Assembly: GCA_031549085.1 (NCBI GenBank)
Contig: JAVBQL010000019.1
Location: forward strand, 696-64,695
From: Spirochaetota bacterium
GTDB taxonomy: Bacteria > Spirochaetota > GWE2-31-10 > MWDO01
DNA: 64,000 nt
Direction of reading: 5' to 3'
Below, one piece after another: positions 32,594 through 60,869 of the stretch (position 1 is the stretch's first letter; each line of letters begins with the position of its first letter). The notes beneath the pieces are model-generated. The model was not told the origin of the DNA. It was given only the letters and a program-made list of their open reading frames with translations, and made no database searches. The position numbers were made by a program, and so were the translations under genes.

Positions 32594-32671
32594 GGCTATT
32601 AAAGGGTATATAACAAAGATTTTATCTCGTTATTACGCCAATAAAATCGACTTATATATCCTTTAATAGCC
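32594..32671 (+). repeat. Structured core unit U2 (type II)
   Basis: GGCTATTAAAGGGTATAT-AACAAAGATTTTATCTCGTTATTACGCCAATAAAATCGACTT-ATATATCCTTTAATAGCC. Arms are complementary apart from one G:T. Confidence 0.85.
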
Positions 32672-34631: not shown

Positions 34632-34769
34632 AAAAACCTCCTAAAAAGTTTTTTTATTAGCCACACTCTTTTTGATAAATATTTTATATAAAAAAAAATA
34701 TTACCTTTCTAATTTTATGATAGAACAAGCTCTAACTCTTTCCCTTATTAAATCAATAGGCTTATTGTA

Positions 34770-36145: not shown

Positions 36146-36251
36146 CCAGCTCATCGTTAAAAGCCGTTAAGATATATAACAAAGATTTTATCTCGTTATT
36201 ACGCCAATAAAATCGACTTATATGTCTTAATGGCTTTTAACGATGAGCTGG
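36146..36251 (+). repeat. Structured core unit U5 (type II, 32-bp outer stem)
   Basis: CCAGCTCATCGTTAAAAGCCGTTAAGATATAT-AACAAAGATTTTATCTCGTTATTACGCCAATAAAATCGACTT-ATATGTCTTAATGGCTTTTAACGATGAGCTGG. 30 Watson-Crick pairs plus 2 G:T. The 41-nt centre is identical to U2. Confidence 0.9.
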
Positions 36252-36331: not shown

Positions 36332-36437
36332 TTTTTCTTTCCACGTCCTTTTTAACAAATATTTTGTATAAAAAGAATATTATCTTTCTAACCTTGAGGG
36401 GATTAGTAAAAAAAACTCCTCCACACCCACATTTTTT

Positions 36438-43104: not shown

Positions 43105-44337
43105 ATGGATAACATAAAAGTTGCAGAGAAACCGCTTCTAAACAATGTAAATGGCTTTTTAGATTTTGGAATTGCATGTGGACTAAAAAAGAGTAGTGCC
43201 TTAGATTTGGGAGTGGTATACTCAATTGTTCCATCAACAGTCTTTGCAAAGTTTACTACAAATAAGTATAAGGCAGCCCCGCTATTGGTAGATATAGAGA
43301 ACCTAAAAAAGAGTAAAAATAGGGCAAGACTACTGATTGTAAACAGTGGAAACGCCAACGCCTGCACAGGTGAAAAGGGATTCAATGACTCTTTAAAGAC
43401 ATGTGAGGTTGGAGCAGAACTATTTGATGTAAACACAAATGAAGTTCTTGTCTCTTCAACCGGCGTAATTGGTGTAAACCTTGATGTCAATAAAGTTGTT
43501 GGTGGCTTAAAAACTATACACTCATCTTTTATAAAGAGTGGAAAAGAGCATTCAAATAATTTTTCAAAGGCTATAATGACAACTGATACAAAAGAGAAGG
43601 TCTTTGAAGTCAAGGTAAATGATGATGGAAGCCAATACTCTATATATGGCTGCTGTAAGGGTTCAGGTATGATCCACCCAAATATGGCGACAATGCTCTG
43701 CTATTTATTTACAGACTGCAATATTGAAGATTCACTTTTAGAGAGTGCGTTTACGGAGATTGTTGATTTAAGCTTCAATTCGATAAGTGTTGATGGTGAC
43801 ACAAGCACCAATGATACTGTTATGATTTTTAAAAATGGTCTTGCAAACAACAAGATTATTGATAATAAAAAGAGCGAGAGCTATCACACATTTTACAATG
43901 CACTTCTTCTAACAGCAACAGAGCTTGCAAAAAAAGTTGTTGAGGATGGTGAGGGAGCAACAAAGCTAATAGAGATAGATATAAAAAATGCAGCAACACT
44001 CTCTATGGCAAAAAATATTGCAAAATCCATTGCTCGCTCAAGTTTAGTAAAGACAGCTATGTTTGGTGAAGATGCAAACTGGGGAAGAGTTATCTGTGCA
44101 GTAGGTTACAGCGGAGAGAACTTTGATACAAACAAGCTTAAACTCTCAATAGGTGATCTTCTCCTATTTGAAAATGGGCTTAATCACCCTTTTGATGAGG
44201 AAGCAGCGAAAGAGATCCTAGCCAAAAAAAATATCACAATAACTGTTGATATCGGGATGGGAGATATCTCCTACAAATATTGGACATGTGATTTGAGCTA
44301 TGAATATGTAAAGATCAATGCTGACTATCGCTCGTAA
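43105..44337 (+). CDS. argJ: Bifunctional ornithine acetyltransferase / N-acetylglutamate synthase
   Basis: Autoprocessing site HPNMATMLCYL and the KGSGMIHP motif. Confidence 0.9.
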   Translation: MDNIKVAEKPLLNNVNGFLDFGIACGLKKSSALDLGVVYSIVPSTVFAKFTTNKYKAAPLLVDIENLKKSKNRARLLIVNSGNANACTGEKGFNDSLKTCEVGAELFDVNTNEVLVSSTGVIGVNLDVNKVVGGLKTIHSSFIKSGKEHSNNFSKAIMTTDTKEKVFEVKVNDDGSQYSIYGCCKGSGMIHPNMATMLCYLFTDCNIEDSLLESAFTEIVDLSFNSISVDGDTSTNDTVMIFKNGLANNKIIDNKKSESYHTFYNALLLTATELAKKVVEDGEGATKLIEIDIKNAATLSMAKNIAKSIARSSLVKTAMFGEDANWGRVICAVGYSGENFDTNKLKLSIGDLLLFENGLNHPFDEEAAKEILAKKNITITVDIGMGDISYKYWTCDLSYEYVKINADYRS

Positions 44338-44347
44338 AGCCCTATCT

Positions 44348-44392
44348 CTAATCCCCCCAACCCCCTTTTATCAAAAAGGGGGCTTTAAAAAG
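44348..44392 (+). repeat. GC-hairpin module copy f, the left inverted terminus of the 420-bp mosaic
   Basis: CTAATCCCCCCAACCCCCTTTTATCAAAAAGGGGGCTTTAAAAAG. Starts 11 nt after the argJ stop. Confidence 0.85.
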
Positions 44393-44418
44393 AGGATTCT
44401 TGCTTAGATATGAGCGGG

Positions 44419-44511
44419 AGTTTTTGCTAAGACACAAAAGAGTCGATTTTTGTTAGAACTTTCTTACGAAAGTAATACAAAAATCTTTATCTTTTGCATC
44501 TTATAAAACTC
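44419..44511 (-). repeat. Structured core unit U9 (reverse orientation)
   Basis: Reverse complement reads ...TAAAGATTTTTGTATT-ACTTTC-GTAA-GAAAGT-TCTAACAAAAATCGACT... Outer arms GAGTTTTTGCTAAGACACAAAAGA / TCTTTTGCATCTTATAAAACTC are mostly complementary. Confidence 0.75.
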
Positions 44512-44582
44512 CCTAAATTATAAAAAACTATTCGCAATATATAAGTTTTTTTTAATAAACAAGCTTATCGCTGACAAATCAA

Positions 44583-44683
44583 ACAAAAAGATAAATGAGA
44601 TGCCAAAAACAAAGCTTTTTTTATATTTTGCACAGCAAAATCGAACAAAAAGCGACTTTTAGGTATCTTGTTTATCTTTTTGT
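44583..44683 (+). repeat. Structured core unit U10 (type I)
   Basis: ACAAAAAGATAAATGAGATGCCAAAA-ACAAAGCTTTTTTTATATTTTGCACAGCAAAATCGAACAAAAAGCGACTT-TTAGGTATCTTGTTTATCTTTTTGT. Confidence 0.75.
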
Positions 44684-44724
44684 CTTTATTACAATAAAAA
44701 AGCTATTTTTTTTGAACTAGCCTT

Positions 44725-44769
44725 CTTTTTAAAGCCCCCTTTTTGATAAAAGGGGGTTTGGGGGATTAG
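44725..44769 (-). repeat. GC-hairpin module copy g, the right inverted terminus of the mosaic
   Basis: The reverse complement CTAATCCCCCAAACCCCCTTTTATCAAAAAGGGGGCTTTAAAAAG matches copy f at 44 of 45 positions. Ends 7 nt from the stop of the PhoU-fusion gene. Confidence 0.85.
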
Positions 44770-44775
44770 AAAAAG

Positions 44776-45870
44776 TTACTTCCCTCTACTCTCCACAAGC
44801 TTTATAAAATCTTCCACCATAGCTTTTATATCATCTCTAATCTCTCTAGCTCTTGAGAGTTTTTCAGATTCACTTCCTTGAAGTTCTGCTCCACCCTTGA
44901 TATTCCAATTGAGAAGCTCACTCTTCCATGGAAGTTCGAGAGGCTTCTCTTGAGAATTTTCATCGCACAAGTTAATAACATAATCAAAATTTTTCTCAAA
45001 TTTTGATATATCCTCAATAGACTTCGTTCTGTTTTTTGATATATATATATTAACCTCGCTCATCACCTCAACAGCATATGGATTCAAAGTTCCCTTAGAG
45101 ATGCCAGCACTCACTACATGAAACTCATCTTTTCCAAATTTTTTTAGGAGAGCTTCAGCTATCTGACTTGTCAATGAGTTCTCTTCACAAATAAACAGCA
45201 CTTTTGTTTGGCTCTCTCTCCTATACCAGTGGTGCTTTATAATCTTCCCCTCAACCATATAGACAACATTTTCTGATATATTTGTTGTTAAGTCTGCAAT
45301 TCTCTCCAAACTATCGGAGATATCTATTAAGGAGAGAGCTCTCTCTATATTTTTTGGGTGAAGAGTCATAAATTTAACAGCCTCTTTAAAAAACTTATTC
45401 GCCAAAAAATCAACTTCACTGTCCCTTATACAAACCTCACGTGCAAGAAATGAGTCTCTATCTATAAAAGATTTCATACTATCTTTAAGCATTGCAAGAG
45501 CAACATCTTTAATCTTTATAATATCTTTTAAAAAATGTGAGATTGGCTCATCAACAATTTTGATTGAATGTTTAGCAATAGTAACCGCATTGTCCGCCAT
45601 TCTCTCAATGTCATAGTTCATCTTGCTGATAATAAATACAGTACGAAGAAATATCGCCTCCGGCTGATAGAGAGCAATCGTCCTAATGCAGAGTCTATCA
45701 ATCTTTATCTCATTTTTATTAACCTTAGGCTCCTGCTTATCTATAACCTTCTCAAGAAGATCTTTATCATTCTCAATCAAACCCTTAATGGCATTTGTAA
45801 TCATCTTATCAGCTCTATTTGCCTGCTTTAGTATATGTTCCTTAAGTGAAGTTATCTCTTTCTCTATCAT
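44776..45870 (-). CDS. PhoU domain fused to a degenerate ArsC/LMW-PTP-like domain
   Basis: aa 1-~215: two PhoU repeats (DIERMADNAVTIAK and SLERIADLTTNISE). aa ~223-364 align by eye to Bacillus-type ArsC/LMW-PTP (KVLFICEENSLTSQIAE...VVSAGI...LNPYAVEVMSEVNIYIS...VINLC), but the P-loop reads CEENSLTS rather than CxGNxCRS. Confidence 0.75.
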   Translation of the reverse strand: MIEKEITSLKEHILKQANRADKMITNAIKGLIENDKDLLEKVIDKQEPKVNKNEIKIDRLCIRTIALYQPEAIFLRTVFIISKMNYDIERMADNAVTIAKHSIKIVDEPISHFLKDIIKIKDVALAMLKDSMKSFIDRDSFLAREVCIRDSEVDFLANKFFKEAVKFMTLHPKNIERALSLIDISDSLERIADLTTNISENVVYMVEGKIIKHHWYRRESQTKVLFICEENSLTSQIAEALLKKFGKDEFHVVSAGISKGTLNPYAVEVMSEVNIYISKNRTKSIEDISKFEKNFDYVINLCDENSQEKPLELPWKSELLNWNIKGGAELQGSESEKLSRAREIRDDIKAMVEDFIKLVESRGK

Positions 45871-55957: not shown

Positions 55958-56846
55958 AGGTGGTTTGGGTGGAATGGGGCTTGATGCCCTTCTTAAAGTA
56001 AATGTCCAAAATGATAATACAATAAAATCGGAGGACTCCTCTCCCGAAAATGTTCTGGCTGGATTTGTTGAGCTTCCTATTGATAAGATTGTCCCAAACA
56101 ATAATCAGCCAAGAAAATATTTTGATGATGAGGCAATAGAGAACCTCTCTATATCAATAAAAAACTTTGGCGTGATACAGCCAATAACTGTTGTAAAGAA
56201 AGATAGCAAGTATGAAATTATTGCTGGAGAGAGAAGATATAGAGCCTCAATAAAGGCTGGACTTGAGAAGATCCCAGTAATAATAAAAGATCTCTCACAA
56301 AAAGAGCAGCTTGAGATCTCACTTGTGGAGAACATTCAGAGAGAGGATCTAAATCCTATTGAAGAGGCTTTGGCCTATATGAGTCTGATTGATGCCTACA
56401 ACCTGACTCATGAAGAGATCTCAAAGAGAGTTGGAAAGAGCAGAACTGCAATAACCAACACAATAAGATTGTTAAACCTTGAACCGCAAATTCAAAAATG
56501 GATAACAGATGGGCTTCTGCCTCCGGGCCATGCAAGAGTTATACTCTCAGTAGAGGATAAGGGAGAGCATCTAAAATTTGCTGACTATATAATAAAAAAC
56601 AATCTCTCTGTTAGAGAGGCTGAAGCACTCTCAAAAAAGTGGTCTACAGATAGAGATATAGGCAATAGCAAGAAGCCAACAAAACAGGCTATGAGAGAGA
56701 TTGAAATTCAAGACGCAGAGGATAGAATTGCTAAAAAGCTTCAAACAAAAGTCAAGATAAGCGGAACATCAATTAAGGGGAAGATAACAATCGACTACTT
56801 TACTCAAGAGGATTTGGAGCGAATTTTAGAACTTTGGGAAATATAA
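55944..56846 (+). CDS. parB: Chromosome-partitioning protein ParB/Spo0J
   Basis: GERRYRA box and an HTH segment (THEEISKRVGKSRTAITNTIRLL). Overlaps the parA stop. Confidence 0.9.
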   Translation: MAKSRGGLGGMGLDALLKVNVQNDNTIKSEDSSPENVLAGFVELPIDKIVPNNNQPRKYFDDEAIENLSISIKNFGVIQPITVVKKDSKYEIIAGERRYRASIKAGLEKIPVIIKDLSQKEQLEISLVENIQREDLNPIEEALAYMSLIDAYNLTHEEISKRVGKSRTAITNTIRLLNLEPQIQKWITDGLLPPGHARVILSVEDKGEHLKFADYIIKNNLSVREAEALSKKWSTDRDIGNSKKPTKQAMREIEIQDAEDRIAKKLQTKVKISGTSIKGKITIDYFTQEDLERILELWEI

Positions 56847-56864
56847 AACTCTTTTTTAAAAAAA

Positions 56865-57407
56865 CTAAAGCGGTTCAAAGTTTTTTATATAGTGATATGA
56901 TGCACCTGCATCTGCAACATTTTCTGGAACATACTCATCAAAAACAATTTTTGTTGGAAAACCATAAGTAGAATCATAGTCAATAATGAATGCTGTATAG
57001 TAGCAATCATTATTGGAGACTTTTTTACCATTATTTTTGTTATATCTATCAATTATCTTCTCAAATATCTTATTAATCGTTTCAAAATTGGATATATCTG
57101 CTACATAGCCAGAACCAATAACATTTCCATTAAAATCTATCCACTCTGCAGAATCTACTAATCCGTTTCTTACATATATTCTATAATGAGAAGAGAAGTC
57201 ATCTGAACCAATTATATGATAATCAAACTTATAATCTTTTATATCATGATCTTGCCATTTTTTCAAATTGGTATTATAAGCATCTTTGTCAAAATCAATA
57301 TATCTCTCTTTATTAGTATATTTCTCTAAAAAATCACAGCTTAAGAAAATCATAAAAAACAGAATAAAAAATATAGTAATTTTTGCTATTTTAACTCTTT
57401 GAAACAT
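56865..57407 (-). CDS. Tandem paralogous lipoprotein, type A (1 of 7)
   Basis: Lipobox FLSC. Family motifs: W(K/Q)D..I.DYKF.Y, TI(N/D)..F..I...YN...G, CYY.A...(E/D)YD..YGFP, and C-terminal NFEPL. Confidence 0.65.
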   Translation of the reverse strand: MFQRVKIAKITIFFILFFMIFLSCDFLEKYTNKERYIDFDKDAYNTNLKKWQDHDIKDYKFDYHIIGSDDFSSHYRIYVRNGLVDSAEWIDFNGNVIGSGYVADISNFETINKIFEKIIDRYNKNNGKKVSNNDCYYTAFIIDYDSTYGFPTKIVFDEYVPENVADAGASYHYIKNFEPL

Positions 57408-57419
57408 TTGTTTGCTCTC

Positions 57420-57944
57420 CTAAAGTGGTTCAAAATTGCCCAAACTGTAATCAAAAGTGCCATCAACAGCTAAATTCTCTGGTACATACAAATCATATCC
57501 AATTGATGTTGGAAAACCATAAATTGGATCATACTCAACATTAATAGCTCTATAGTAGCAATCATCATTTGCTACCTTTATGCCATTATTTCTATTATAA
57601 GTATCAATTATCTCCTCAAATATATCATCTATTGTCTTTAAATCATAGTTGTCTTTGTTCATATCCCCACTAACATCACCACTATCACTGTTATCGATTT
57701 TATAGGCATAAGAATTAACATACCCATCTTTAACAACTATTTTGTAATCAAAGCCGATAAACCCAAATCCACTATACTCAAATTTATAATTTTCTTGTTT
57801 TTGATCTTGCCACTTTTTTAAATTGGTGTCATAGACCTCTTTATCAAAATCAATATATCTCTCTTTATTAGTATATTTCTCTAAATAATCACAGCCAAAA
57901 AAGAGTATTAAAAATAACAATATTGAGATATTTTTTTTATTCAT
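57420..57944 (-). CDS. Tandem paralogous lipoprotein, type A (2 of 7)
   Basis: Lipobox FFGC. Shares DYLEKYTNKERYIDFDK with paralog 1. Confidence 0.65.
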   Translation of the reverse strand: MNKKNISILLFLILFFGCDYLEKYTNKERYIDFDKEVYDTNLKKWQDQKQENYKFEYSGFGFIGFDYKIVVKDGYVNSYAYKIDNSDSGDVSGDMNKDNYDLKTIDDIFEEIIDTYNRNNGIKVANDDCYYRAINVEYDPIYGFPTSIGYDLYVPENLAVDGTFDYSLGNFEPL

Positions 57945-57955
57945 CTTTCACTCTC

Positions 57956-58501
57956 CTAGAGGGATTTAAAGTTTTTTATATAGTGATATGATGAACCCAC
58001 ATCTGTTATATCCTCTGGAACATACATATCAAAAACAATTTTTGTTGGAAAACCATATGTGGAATCATACTCTATAGTAAAGGCTCTATAATAGTATGTA
58101 TCACTAATATTAACTATTTTTCCCTTATTGCTGTTATACATCTCCATAATATAATCAAATAGCTCATTAATAGTTCTCAAACTGGAGATATCAATGTGGT
58201 CAGCACTAAGATCATTTCCATCAGAATCTATTTTATCTGCAGAGTCTACAACCCCATTTTTAACATATACTCTATAATTTGAAGAGTATCCAACAGCTGA
58301 TACGTGGTGGTCAAATTTATAATCGCCTATGTTATGACCCTTCCATATTTCTAGATTACTGTTATAGGCATCTTTATCAAAATTAATAACTCTCTCTTTA
58401 TTTGAATAACTACAGCCAAAGAAAAATATTAAAAACAAGAATATTAATATGGTTATAATTTTAGTCACTCTTTTTATCAAACTCCTTCTAAAAAACCTCA
58501 A
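57956..58501 (-). CDS. Tandem paralogous lipoprotein, type A (3 of 7)
   Basis: Lipobox FFGC. C-terminal STYGFPTKIVFDMYVPE...SYHYIKNFKSL is close to paralog 1. Confidence 0.65.
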   Translation of the reverse strand: MRFFRRSLIKRVTKIITILIFLFLIFFFGCSYSNKERVINFDKDAYNSNLEIWKGHNIGDYKFDHHVSAVGYSSNYRVYVKNGVVDSADKIDSDGNDLSADHIDISSLRTINELFDYIMEMYNSNKGKIVNISDTYYYRAFTIEYDSTYGFPTKIVFDMYVPEDITDVGSSYHYIKNFKSL

Positions 58502-59042
58502 AGTTTTTTATATAAAATCGTGCCCCACCAGATCCACACCCATCTGTGCCATTAAATCGATTTTCTGGAGGATAGTGATACTCACAGGAGAGCAACTCTG
58601 GAAAGCCATAGGTACTATTGTATGTTACATCTATTGCTGTGCAATATGAGTCTTCATTTGGAATATAGGTTTCCCCATCTAAAGAGTTATAATCATTAAT
58701 TATCTTATCAAATATCTCATCAATTGTCTTCAAATTGTAGCGATTACTATTAGAATTCACTGTTACTGTTGTTTCTGTGCCAGAATTTGAGTAGCTGTAT
58801 GACTCAATTACTCTATTTTTGACATTAATGTTATAGGCACTCTTATCCCAATCAGGATATAAATTTTCATACCTAAATTTGTAGTCATCGATATTATGAT
58901 CTTTCCACTTTTTTAAATTGTTATAATAGGCATCTTTATCAAAATCTATATTTATCACCTCTGGCATATAGCCATCACAGCCAGCAAAGAGAAACAAGAT
59001 TGAGATAGAAAATAGTATAAAAGCCCTGTTTTGATAGAACAT
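58488..59042 (-). CDS. Tandem paralogous lipoprotein, type B (4 of 7)
   Basis: MFYQNRAFILFSISILFLFAGCDGYMP signal/lipobox. Overlaps the next gene by 14 nt. Confidence 0.65.
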   Translation of the reverse strand: MFYQNRAFILFSISILFLFAGCDGYMPEVINIDFDKDAYYNNLKKWKDHNIDDYKFRYENLYPDWDKSAYNINVKNRVIESYSYSNSGTETTVTVNSNSNRYNLKTIDEIFDKIINDYNSLDGETYIPNEDSYCTAIDVTYNSTYGFPELLSCEYHYPPENRFNGTDGCGSGGARFYIKNFEVF

Positions 59043-59054
59043 CTTTTTACCTCA

Positions 59055-59609
59055 TTAAAAAGTTTGAAAATTTGATATTCTATAAATATCTCTACTTCTA
59101 TCACTTGATACCAAATCTGAAGTATGGTAGTTATATTTAACAAATTTTGGAAAACCATAGTAGTCATCATACTCAACATCAATGCTTGTACAGTATGAGT
59201 TATAACTTCTATATTCATAACCATTCTCTTTATCATAAAAATATACTATATTATAAAATAGAGTATCAATATTGGCTGCATCTCTTGATGAGTAGTAGTC
59301 GTCAGAGACAATTTTTACAACAACATCATTGCCATACTCATCTTTGTAGGAGTAGCTCTTAAGTTTATTATTCTCAACAAGCACATCTGTAGTGGTGTCG
59401 TGGCCATATTGGCTGTTATGACTATAGGTAAACTGATAATCTTTTATATCAAGAGCCTTCCACTTTACAAGGTTTGAAAGACACTCATCTTTATCAAAAG
59501 TGATATACCTTTTTTCGGCTTCCTCATCTTGGAATGGACAAGAAAAAATAGAGAGGATTGATACTATTAATAACAATATTATTATAGGTAAAAGAATTTT
59601 TATCTTCAT
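59055..59609 (-). CDS. Tandem paralogous lipoprotein, type C (5 of 7)
   Basis: Lipobox IFSC. C-terminal YRISNFQTF. Confidence 0.65.
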   Translation of the reverse strand: MKIKILLPIIILLLIVSILSIFSCPFQDEEAEKRYITFDKDECLSNLVKWKALDIKDYQFTYSHNSQYGHDTTTDVLVENNKLKSYSYKDEYGNDVVVKIVSDDYYSSRDAANIDTLFYNIVYFYDKENGYEYRSYNSYCTSIDVEYDDYYGFPKFVKYNYHTSDLVSSDRSRDIYRISNFQTF

Positions 59610-59750
59610 AATTATAACCTCTATATATTTAGTAGTATAAGCAAAAACAATAGAATTATCAATCTCTTTATTATGCTATAAATATAAAAGAATATTGATA
59701 ATTTTATAAACATAGATGAGAGTTTAGATAAACCCTTCTGCAAGCACACT

Positions 59751-60305
59751 CTAAAGGGGCTCAAAGTTTTTTATCTTCATATAGAAGATTTCGATGGGTG
59801 CATCACTGGCTGCATAGGGTGAAAAACTCCAGCTTTCAGGCGGATACTTATATTCATAGGAGAGATACTCTGGAAAACCATACTCACTATTATATTTTAC
59901 ATCTATTGCATAACAGTAGCTCTCCTCATTTGGAATAACACTTTTTCCATCCCAATAGTTATACTCCCTAATTATACAATCAAATAGCTCATCTATTGTT
60001 AACAACGAGTGTTCATTGCCTGTTGAGTTAAGTGTAACCTCTACTTCACTTTTATAATCACTATAGGAGTATGACTCAATCAAGCTATTTCTAACATTAA
60101 CTTTGTAATCATTTCCATCCCACTCCTTAATATAGAGGAATTTATAGTTAACGATATTAGTATCTTTCCACTTTTTTAAATTGGCATCATAAGAGCCCCT
60201 ATTAAAGTCAACGCTTACTGTCACTGGCATATAGCCATCACAGCCCGCAAAGAGAAACAAGATTGAAATAGCAAATAGTGTAAAAGCCCTATTTAGATAG
60301 AACAT
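59751..60305 (-). CDS. Tandem paralogous lipoprotein, type B (6 of 7)
   Basis: MFYLNRAFTLFAISILFLFAGCDGYMP is nearly identical to the signal peptide of paralog 4; the mature part has diverged. Confidence 0.65.
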   Translation of the reverse strand: MFYLNRAFTLFAISILFLFAGCDGYMPVTVSVDFNRGSYDANLKKWKDTNIVNYKFLYIKEWDGNDYKVNVRNSLIESYSYSDYKSEVEVTLNSTGNEHSLLTIDELFDCIIREYNYWDGKSVIPNEESYCYAIDVKYNSEYGFPEYLSYEYKYPPESWSFSPYAASDAPIEIFYMKIKNFEPL

Positions 60306-60317
60306 TTTTTTGCCTCA

Positions 60318-60869
60318 CTAAAAAGTTTGAAAATTTGATATCCTATAGATAGACCAATCCCTCTCACCATCACTATGAGAATCTGGGAGGTGATATCTAG
60401 AGATAATACTCTTTGGATAGTGGTAAAATTCATCATATTCAACATCAATACTTGTAAAATATAGCTGATAATCTCTATACCTATGATCGTTTCCAGAATC
60501 ATAGATACCTGCTATCACATAAAATAGCCTCTCAATAGTAGATAACTCCCCATGTGAAGCGGTTTTTTCGAGAGGTTTTACAACAACATCATTACCATAG
60601 CTATCTTTGTAGGAGTAGCTCTTAATTAAGCCAGCCTCAACAACTAGATCTGCAGTTGAATCAACACCATACTGATGGTTACTGCTATAGGTAAATTTAT
60701 AGTTTTCTATACCAAGAGCGTCCCACTTGTTAAGATTCGAAAAGCACAGAGCTCTATCAAAAGTTATAAATATCAGCTCACCCCTATCATAGGGTTGGCA
60801 GCCAAAGAGAGCAGGTAGAGATAGAAGCAATATCATACTTTTTATAAATAAAATAACTTTCATTTGCAT
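60318..60869 (-). CDS. Tandem paralogous lipoprotein, type C (7 of 7)
   Basis: Lipobox LFGC. C-terminal YRISNFQTF as in paralog 5. Confidence 0.65.
   Translation of the reverse strand: MQMKVILFIKSMILLLSLPALFGCQPYDRGELIFITFDRALCFSNLNKWDALGIENYKFTYSSNHQYGVDSTADLVVEAGLIKSYSYKDSYGNDVVVKPLEKTASHGELSTIERLFYVIAGIYDSGNDHRYRDYQLYFTSIDVEYDEFYHYPKSIISRYHLPDSHSDGERDWSIYRISNFQTF

What the first reader, a model, noticed from the sequence alone, without database searches (positions are those of the whole stretch)
44348..44769. 420-bp noncoding mosaic bounded by 44/45-identical inverted termini and holding two core units in opposite orientation
Between the convergent argJ and PhoU-fusion genes, the left end (44348-44392, CTAATCCCCCCAACCCCCTTTTATCAAAAAGGGGGCTTTAAAAAG) and the reverse complement of the right end (44725-44769) differ at one position. 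Each terminus is itself a 9-bp G/C-capped hairpin. Inside are unit U9 (reverse) and U10 (forward), so the block has a MITE-like or REPIN-like architecture. The interior halves are much more diverged than the termini. No transposase is present in the window.
Basis: seen in the sequence. Interest (0 to 1): 0.6.

Follow-up and report, generated by a model that had tools for sequence, protein, structure and literature searches.

The report
Two gene-end repeat units, back to back
The 420-bp block is not one jumping element: it is the standard repeat set that this spirochaete places after many genes (a triplex-type GC hairpin, then a long palindrome), present twice because two genes end facing each other.

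Summary
The two 45-nt ends are 44/45 identical inverted copies. Each holds a 9-bp G/C-capped hairpin, and two long palindromes (U9, U10) lie inside in opposite orientation.

The MITE/REPIN reading is only partly supported.
- The ends belong to a family of about 59 "modules" in this genome. Of these, 37 lie within 60 nt after a stop codon in sense orientation and none in antisense.
- 29 of 59 modules are followed by a long palindrome, always co-oriented.
- The block is therefore this gene-end unit twice, once behind argJ and once behind the convergent PhoU-fusion gene.
- It has no second copy and no target duplication. Outside the shared core, its two interior halves are no more alike than shuffled sequence.

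The module has the design of the known BoxC/PIT/TM intrastrand-triplex repeats. CTAATCCCCC mirrors the purine arm of the hairpin, giving 9 of 9 valid triplets.

The same motif brackets small DUF559 (Vsr-like) nuclease genes in Bacteroidota contigs. No such gene, RAYT or tested transposase is in this 88%-complete MAG.

RNA contigs stop at or just before modules at four of five informative gene ends, which hints at a role in forming mRNA 3' ends.

The two ends are the most similar of 1,176 module pairs. That points to local homogenisation or to an origin as a doublet.

The parts
43105..44337 (+). argJ; its stop codon lies 10 nt before the left module
   Evidence: Pfam ArgJ, E 3.9e-145; ORF list
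44342..44393 (+). Left gene-end module, in sense orientation to argJ: T-rich lead-in, box CTAATCCCCCC (44348-44358), linker AA, hairpin 44361-44382, tail CTTTAAAAAGA
   Evidence: Inverted repeat I1; nhmmer family hit at E 1.4e-11; 9 of 9 purine-motif triplets on the G-rich strand for the right-hand copy, whose stem and ATTAG end are identical (the left copy's own row was not printed)
44416..44513 (+). Long palindrome U9, co-oriented with argJ and the left module. Conserved core 44440-44491 (GAGTCGATTTTTGT...ACAAAAATCTTTATC); inner hairpin of the 'AACTTTCTTACGAAAGT' subfamily
   Evidence: Fold -37.9 kcal/mol, z -6.7; core census; 98% identical over 49-50 nt to copies on C17 and C2
44514..44582 (.). 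Unique AT-rich central spacer holding only a weak A/T hairpin (44517-44556)
   Evidence: Repeat I8; no terminator-like site found; no RNA contig over 44511-44604
44583..44683 (-). Long palindrome U10, co-oriented with the PhoU-fusion gene and the right module. Core 44608-44658; inner hairpin of the 'GATTTTGC...GCAAAAT' subfamily
   Evidence: Fold z -5.8 / -8.5; core census; best relatives are composite units at C10:83093-83264, C15:173836-173995 and C30:114419-114567
44724..44775 (-). Right gene-end module, in sense orientation to the PhoU-fusion gene: hairpin 44735-44756, box 44759-44769 (CTAATCCCCCA on the - strand)
   Evidence: nhmmer E 5.3e-13; 9 of 9 triplets
44776..45870 (-). PhoU + LMW-phosphatase-like fusion gene; its stop codon lies 6 nt before the right module
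   Evidence: Pfam PhoU 9.1e-33 and LMWPc 1e-11

Best explanation
The argJ/phoU convergent spacer (438 bp) is filled by two copies, back to back, of this genome's stereotyped gene-end arrangement: stop codon, then a ~50-nt GC-hairpin module in sense orientation, then a co-oriented ~100-nt long palindrome. The 'inverted termini' exist because the two genes converge. They are not the ends of one transposable unit.

The module is an intrastrand-triplex-type repeat of the BoxC/PIT/TM kind. On the G-rich strand it reads pyrimidine arm CCCCCTTTT, loop, purine arm AAAAGGGGG, a 2-3-nt linker, then GGGGGATTA. That last block mirrors the purine arm.

Shown:
- family membership, orientation and position rules;
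- absence from relatives;
- the same motif bracketing DUF559 nuclease genes in other phyla.

Inferred:
- Modules spread as small selfish or nuclease-dependent repeats and are kept only just behind genes in sense orientation. There they mark or form mRNA 3' ends, either as an exonuclease block or as a U-tract-less terminator.
- The two copies here became near-identical through gene conversion or template switching between close inverted repeats.
- U9 and U10 arrived separately.
For: Module family and placement:
- 59 modules genome-wide. 37 have a gene end within 60 nt on the CTAAT side and 0 on the hairpin side, P = 1.5e-11.
- 33 of 49 modules lie after an ORF of at least 80 codons; most of those stop codons begin 9-15 nt before CTAAT (range 44 nt before to 1 nt inside it).
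- 29 of 59 modules are followed within 29-174 nt by a palindrome core. All are co-oriented; none is opposite and none lies upstream.

The block is not a unit:
- It has no second copy. Each half aligns colinearly with solo composite units elsewhere, for example 75.8% over 178 nt to C10:83093-83264.
- The interiors are alike only at shuffled level, and there is no TSD.
- U9 and U10 have different inner hairpins.
- From 271 convergent spacers with 15 occupied, about 0.2 doubly occupied spacers are expected, so one is unremarkable.

Triplex design: 9 of 9 triplets shown for the right terminus, whose stem and ATTAG end the left one shares; 40 of 59 modules have at least 7.

RNA: contigs end at or just before the module at nth, phoU, C17:101640 and C5:21597, with zero depth beyond. 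Where a DNA contig for the gene side was read (nth, phoU, C5:21597), it runs further than the RNA contig.

Distribution:
- Both families are absent from 30 relatives.
- The module HMM hits DUF559 loci at E 1e-5 to 1e-10, with 0 hits in 720 kb of control loci.
Against: - The two termini are the most similar of all 1,176 module pairs (44/45; median 34, next best 41). Independent placement does not predict this, so an extra step (homogenisation) is needed.
- Inverted doublets of this motif are real units in other organisms.
- The RNA evidence is at contig level only. One module (behind the SPFH gene) is read through by 37 nt.
- The hairpin has no U-tract.
- PIT/BoxC elements showed no terminator activity in E. 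coli (PMC4666352).
- No mobilising enzyme was found in the MAG.
Confidence: 0.6

Rival explanations
1. The termini began as one inverted doublet of the triplex-type module (REPIN-like, as in L106 or E. coli TMECO pairs). It inserted as a unit between argJ and phoU. U9 and U10 inserted later between its arms and stretched it from about 100 to 420 bp.
For: - The termini are the closest of 1,176 module pairs.
- Facing doublets with 35-95-nt interiors exist in L106, L109/L105 and L129.
- 5 pairs among the 23 E. coli TMECO copies are inverted doublets (PMC4666352).
- Palindromes sit downstream of modules, co-oriented, in 29 of 59 cases, so both arms would be expected to carry one.
Against: - It is the only facing pair among 59 modules.
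- Both arms sit 6-10 nt from a stop codon in sense orientation, which a unit insertion explains only if the original spacer was about 20 nt.
- No TSD.
- A third copy on another contig (C31) is 41/45 identical, so much of the likeness is subfamily-level.
Confidence: 0.25
2. The block is a selected, non-mobile bidirectional terminator or insulator region. The hairpins and palindromes are functional RNA or DNA signals that were never mobile, and they look alike because of a shared function.
For: - Strict sense orientation at gene ends.
- RNA contigs stop at modules.
- Convergent spacers are enriched for modules: 5.5% against 1.9%.
Against: - Both families are absent from 30 relatives, including the same family.
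- Some palindrome cores are identical over 42 nt at 7 loci.
- The same module motif occurs in unrelated phyla next to DUF559 genes and in viral contigs.
- No U-tract.
Confidence: 0.1
3. A classical MITE or an IS200/IS605-derived PATE/REPIN, mobilised by a DDE or Y1 (RAYT/TnpA) transposase encoded elsewhere in the genome.
For: Long terminal inverted repeats with internal hairpins. The MAG is only 88% complete, so a transposase could have been missed.
Against: - No Y1_Tnp, TnpB or DDE_Tnp_1 match in the MAG, while the controls ring.
- No TSD and no second copy.
- No GTAG-type REP signature.
- The termini occur overwhelmingly as singletons.
Confidence: 0.05

Closest known systems
BoxC / PIT / TM (TMECO) intrastrand-triplex repeats (Hoyne et al. 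2000 as cited in, and Holder et al. 2015 = PMC4666352)
   Same: - Three consecutive blocks on one strand: pyrimidine arm, purine arm, G-rich mirror block. This is the class II purine motif, with short loops.
- G/C-rich, intergenic, multi-copy, and sometimes found as inverted pairs.
- Lineage-patchy distribution.
- No associated transposase described in the paper.
   Different: - E. coli TMECO shows no orientation bias, lies more often upstream of ORFs, and PIT elements had no terminator activity. Here orientation is 37 to 0 sense, just behind stop codons, and RNA contigs stop there.
- The stem is C5T4/A4G5 rather than CCCTCTCCC-type.
- Half the copies are followed by a second repeat family.
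- Triplex formation was not tested here.
REP / REPIN-RAYT systems (PMC3116915)
   Same: Short hairpin repeats dispersed in intergenic DNA, occurring as singlets and inverted doublets and absent from relatives. In other phyla a single small nuclease gene is bracketed by inverted copies, and each paralogue has its own repeat type.
   Different: - No Y1/HUH transposase. The bracketed gene elsewhere is a DUF559 (Vsr-like PD-(D/E)XK) nuclease, which is also absent here.
- No GTAG box.
- The 'doublet' here is 330 nt apart, and its arms fold on themselves.
MITEs (for example Correia/NEMIS, RUP, BOX)
   Same: Terminal inverted repeats bounding a few hundred non-coding bases; located next to gene ends; co-transcription is possible.
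   Different: No target-site duplication and no second copy of the unit. The interior is built from two independent repeats. The termini are mostly solo.
Hairpin-flanked DUF559 nuclease mini-elements
   Same: The flanking repeat is the same motif, (A/T)AATCCCCC-YR-CCCCCTTT..AAAGGGGG. It lies 5-31 nt after the stop codon in four of the seven loci, and inverted about 15-60 nt before the start in all seven.
   Different: No nuclease gene lies between the arms here or anywhere in the MAG. The arms face inward (hairpins inside), whereas around DUF559 genes the CTAAT ends face the gene.

Membership tests
BoxC/PIT/TM intrastrand-triplex repeat | Three consecutive blocks on one strand (pyrimidine arm, purine arm, reverse-Hoogsteen mirror block) giving at least 6-7 valid triplets | tested here: met
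   The printed row for the right terminus reads CCCCCTTTT / AAAAGGGGG / GGGGGATTA = 9 of 9, and the left terminus shares that stem and ATTAG end. 40 of 59 modules have at least 7. Criteria taken from PMC4666352.
BoxC/PIT/TM intrastrand-triplex repeat | Short loops (1-6 nt) between the blocks | tested here: met
   Hairpin loop of 4 nt (ATCA). The linker is 2-3 nt by the register (AA or AAA in the termini; TG/TA/AA in most family members).
BoxC/PIT/TM intrastrand-triplex repeat | Intergenic, multi-copy, G/C-rich relative to the genome | tested here: met
   46 of 48 regex hits are intergenic; 59 HMM hits; genome GC is 32%.
BoxC/PIT/TM intrastrand-triplex repeat | The isolated strand forms a stable triplex in vitro (CD/NMR) | not testable with these tools
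   Needs spectroscopy on the G-rich oligonucleotide.
MITE | Terminal inverted repeats | tested here: met
   44/45; 52 nt at 94%.
MITE | Target-site duplication flanking the element | tested here: not met
   The flanks are ...CCCTATCT| and |AAAAAGTT, with no direct repeat.
MITE | Several copies of the same TIR-plus-interior unit | tested here: not met
   Only partial hits to separate parts are found; there is no second full copy.
REPIN/REP-RAYT | A RAYT (Y1 HUH transposase) gene in the genome, flanked by the repeats | tested here: not met
   PF01797 gives 0 matches while the controls ring. The MAG is 88% complete, so absence is not proven.
REPIN/REP-RAYT | Two inverted REPs separated by a short spacer, together forming one long hairpin, as the replicating unit | tested here: not met
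   The arms are 330 nt apart, each folds on itself, and 57 of the 59 modules are not in a facing pair.
Intrinsic (Rho-independent) terminator | G/C-rich hairpin followed directly by a U-tract | tested here: not met
   No terminator-like site at either module. The tails read CUUUAAAAAG.
Hairpin-flanked DUF559 nuclease mini-element | A DUF559 ORF between inverted copies of the module | tested here: not met
   No ORF of 40 aa or more lies between the arms apart from a 41-aa chance ORF. PF04480 is absent from the MAG.
Hairpin-flanked DUF559 nuclease mini-element | The same flanking repeat motif | tested here: met
   The spirochaete module HMM hits the flanks of DUF559 genes in 6 of the 7 loci of this subfamily (L105, L109, L111, L115, L123, L125; none in L124) at E 1e-5 to 1e-10, with 0 hits in 720 kb of controls.

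The most novel reading that the evidence does not exclude
The gene-end modules may be the gene-less partners of a nuclease-repeat partnership that crosses phyla. In it, small DUF559 (Vsr-like) nuclease genes are bracketed by inverted triplex-type repeats, analogous to REP/RAYT but with an unrelated enzyme. On this reading, about 60 orphan copies in this spirochaete have been retained or co-opted as signals that form mRNA 3' ends. The argJ/phoU pair would then be a surviving inverted doublet.
Probability: 0.2. Interest if true: 0.75.

Novelty: new member of a known kind. Interest (0 to 1): 0.4.

Why it matters
On its own the block is ordinary: two dispersed repeats meeting between convergent genes. 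The interest lies in the family behind it.

BoxC/PIT/TM triplex repeats have been known since the 1990s without a function or a partner protein. Here a member of that kind shows two things not reported for E. coli:
- an absolute sense orientation just behind stop codons;
- RNA contigs that stop at it.

The same motif also brackets DUF559 nuclease genes in other phyla. If either link holds, it would give these unexplained repeats a testable role (forming mRNA 3' ends) and a candidate enzyme.

Tried and rejected
- **Rfam:** no family matched the window, the block at E up to 10, or loci L105/L106.
- **tRNA-end or att-site idea:** CTAATCCCCC resembles a tRNA end, but no tRNA of this genome ends that way. 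The one literature hit for the 10-mer is a tRNA-Lys end in Methylophilaceae and is unrelated.
- **Canonical terminator:** rejected; there is no U-tract.
- **Small ORF behind the AAGAGG motif:** no conserved ORF; the motif pairs with the C-run instead.
- **Strand test by folding energy:** the strand antisense to the upstream gene folds better (27 against 11 modules, 46 against 23 palindromes). This is confounded by G+U richness, so I did not use it.
- **Empty-site comparison:** impossible. The closest relatives have about 55% ArgJ identity and no argJ-phoU synteny. Only one DNA run holds the locus, and it shows no joints across the block.
- **Plasmid and phage searches:** only weak partial matches, for example in small Bacillus cereus plasmids at E 0.2.
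- **Viral-contig hits to the palindrome core pattern:** they look like chance matches, not palindromes.
- **Transposases and nucleases in the MAG:** Y1, TnpB, DDE_Tnp_1 and DUF559 were all negative.

Full report
**1. The observation**

The sequence is as described. 44348-44392 and the reverse complement of 44725-44769 differ at one base, and no match is expected by chance. The inverted arms extend to 52 nt at 94%.

Each arm contains the hairpin CCCCCTTTT-ATCA-AAAAGGGGG. The flanking genes are argJ (43105-44337, +) and a PhoU + LMW-phosphatase fusion (44776-45870, -). They converge.

Two long palindromes lie inside, in opposite orientation:
- U9, 44416-44513, fold z -6.7;
- U10, 44583-44683, fold z -5.8 to -8.5.

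Outside their ~50-nt conserved core, the two interior halves are no more alike than shuffled sequence. They share 98 of 166 positions, against 96.4 +/- 3.9 for shuffles.

**2. The termini in the whole genome**

The window is C24:696-64695 of a 2.68-Mb, 32% GC, 88%-complete MAG. Earlier notes call it an uncultured spirochaete, and the runs that hold it are labelled invertebrate gut metagenome.

A profile built from the termini finds 59 strong "modules". Their consensus is a T-rich lead-in, CTAATCCCCC, a 2-nt linker, then CCCCCTTT(T)-loop-(A)AAAGGGGG.

Placement and orientation are strict:
- 37 modules have a gene end within 60 nt on the CTAAT side, and none has one only on the hairpin side (P = 1.5e-11).
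- In 33 of 49 cases an ORF of at least 80 codons stops shortly before CTAAT, mostly 9-15 nt before it.

Both termini of the block obey this rule: argJ's stop is followed by 10 nt, and phoU's by 6 nt.

**3. The interior units**

A second family of at least 69 well-formed long palindromes is entirely intergenic. Each has the asymmetric core AAGTCG-N-TTTTTGT ... ACAAAAA-N'-CTTTGTT, in which N and N' covary.

- 29 of 59 modules are followed within 29-174 nt by such a core. All are in the same orientation; none is opposite and none lies upstream.
- The recurring unit is therefore: stop codon, module, palindrome. The block is this unit twice, mirrored because the genes converge.
- U9 and U10 carry different inner hairpins. 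U9's core is 98% identical to copies on C17 and C2. The right half (U10 plus terminus) aligns colinearly with solo composite units on C10, C15, C30 and C5.

**4. Is the block one mobile element?**

- No second copy exists, and there is no target duplication.
- Among 271 convergent spacers, 15 hold a module. This one is the only spacer with a facing pair; another holds two in tandem. About 0.2 doubly occupied spacers are expected by chance.
- No Y1/RAYT, TnpB, DDE_Tnp_1 or DUF559 gene is in the MAG.
- Both repeat families are absent from 30 relatives.
- Relatives share only about 50-55% ArgJ identity and lack argJ-phoU synteny, so no empty-site test is possible.

One fact argues for a link between the two arms. 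They are the most similar of all 1,176 module pairs: 44/45, against a median of 34 and a next-best of 41. I attribute this to homogenisation between close inverted copies. The alternative, origin as an inverted doublet later invaded by U9 and U10, is the main rival.

**5. What the module is**

A scan of metagenome contigs with the exact motif found two unrelated contigs:
- In L106, the stop codon of an M23 peptidase gene is the TAA inside CTAAT. A second, inverted module follows 35 nt later, ahead of infC.
- In L105 (GC 39%), six tandem copies precede a 125-aa DUF559 gene, and another copy follows it.

I looked up six homologues of that DUF559 protein. With L105 itself, that makes seven distinct genomic contexts.
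- In all seven, the gene is preceded (about 15-60 nt before the start) by hairpin-(linker or insert)-GGGGGAT.
- In four of the seven it is followed (5-31 nt after the stop) by (C)TAATCCCCC-YR-hairpin.
- The spirochaete-derived profile hits these flanks in six of the seven contexts at E 1e-5 to 1e-10. It hits nothing in 720 kb of control loci.
- In Fulvivirga lutea, three of the four DUF559 paralogues show their own variant of the same design next to the gene; the fourth has only a degenerate copy with an insert, about 100 nt downstream.

Earlier notes of this scan had linked such flanks to the BoxC/PIT/TM intrastrand-triplex repeats. I tested that design here. On the G-rich strand the termini read CCCCCTTTT, loop, AAAAGGGGG, linker, GGGGGATTA, which gives 9 of 9 valid purine-motif triplets. 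40 of 59 modules have at least 7. In the Fulvivirga paralogues the third block covaries with the stem.

So "CTAAT" is the mirror of the A/T part of the stem. The criteria and the E. coli properties come from Holder et al. 2015 (PMC4666352). In E. coli there are 23 copies, including five inverted pairs, with no orientation bias, and PIT elements showed no terminator activity.

**6. How it may work**

Only Logan contigs, not reads, were available.
- RNA contigs of a metatranscriptome from the same study end at or just before the module at four loci: nth (10 nt into the module), phoU (at its edge), C17:101640 (9 nt in) and C5:21597 (45 nt before). Depth falls to zero beyond.
- At nth, phoU and C5:21597, DNA contigs run further than the RNA contigs. 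At C17:101640 no DNA contig for the gene side was read.
- Behind the SPFH gene the RNA contig reads 37 nt past the hairpin.
- The argJ contig end is repeat-limited and therefore uninformative.

This fits a role in forming or protecting mRNA 3' ends, which would explain why only sense-oriented, stop-proximal copies persist. It is inference, not proof. There is no U-tract.

How the modules spread is unknown. The DUF559 link is a lead, and no such gene is present here.

**7. Verdict**

The MITE/REPIN reading is partly supported:
- The termini are indeed dispersed REP-like repeats, which occur as doublets elsewhere.
- The block itself is best read as two gene-end composite units (confidence 0.6), with a doublet origin as the main rival (0.25).

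It is a new member of a known kind of repeat, with an unusual and testable gene-end behaviour.

Noticed in passing
window 32612-32653 and 36178-36219; genome C2:97721, C15:142575, C23:178495, C29:2303, C5:22372: Six copies of one palindrome subfamily share an identical 42-nt core (AAGTCGATTTTATTGGCGTAATAACGAGATAAAATCTTTGTT), and a seventh differs at one base. Most are flanked by a copy-specific, nearly perfect 20-30-nt inverted repeat. With near-identical cores, those stems cannot come from slow compensatory change. They must be made at or soon after insertion (inverted flank duplication, or palindrome extension by template switching), or the core targets the centre of existing palindromes.
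   Followed up: partly
genome C4:18905, C20:307320, C9:120744, C5:64743, C10:83020; split modules at C5:97660/97753 and C19:972/1066; window 34652-34701 and 36332-36381: A third repeat, about 70 nt (TTTTTTCTAGCCACGTCCTTTTTGACAAATATTTTGTA...), has a -35-like TTGACA. It abuts truncated modules or splits them, in either orientation, as if it inserts into the module hairpin.
   Followed up: no
L105:3680-4640: A Bacteroidota-like metagenome contig carries six tandem ~155-nt units, each ending in a module, directly upstream of a DUF559 gene. The ~95-nt interior of the unit is conserved in a separate contig, L109.
   Followed up: partly
L126-L129 (Fulvivirga lutea CP070608, four DUF559 genes): Three of the four DUF559 paralogues carry their own module variant of one design next to the gene (C-run box + linker + C-capped hairpin): AATCCCCC / CCCCCTTT..AAAGGGGG, ATCCACCCC / CCCGCCAGCGGGGG and TACCCACCCC / CCCCTCC..GGAGGGG. 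The fourth has only a degenerate copy with an insert downstream. The box covaries with the purine arm, in a REP/RAYT-like pairing.
   Followed up: partly
genome-wide module loci: Genes followed by a module end in TAG more often than the genome average: 19 of 33 against 796 of 2,223. In two genes here, and in L106, the TAA inside CTAAT is itself the stop codon.
   Followed up: no
window 56750-57331 and the repeat arrays 56865-60768: The ParB gene of L105 matches window 56750-57331 at 42-44% (tblastx). That stretch overlaps the start of a run of diverged tandem repeats (D1-D7, periods about 550 and 1,270 nt). This may be an array of ParB-like paralogues.
   Followed up: no
L134-L140 (IMG/VR contigs, GC 33-61%): Single copies of AATCCCCC-NN-CCCCCTTT..AAAGGGGG occur in seven viral contigs of very different base composition, with no DUF559 gene within the fetched flanks.
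   Followed up: no
L103, L104 and contig ends at window 44376: Public short-read contigs of both the DNA and the RNA run break 29 nt into the left module, as expected for a 31-mer graph entering a repeat. Contig ends at this particular module therefore say nothing about RNA 3' ends.
   Followed up: yes
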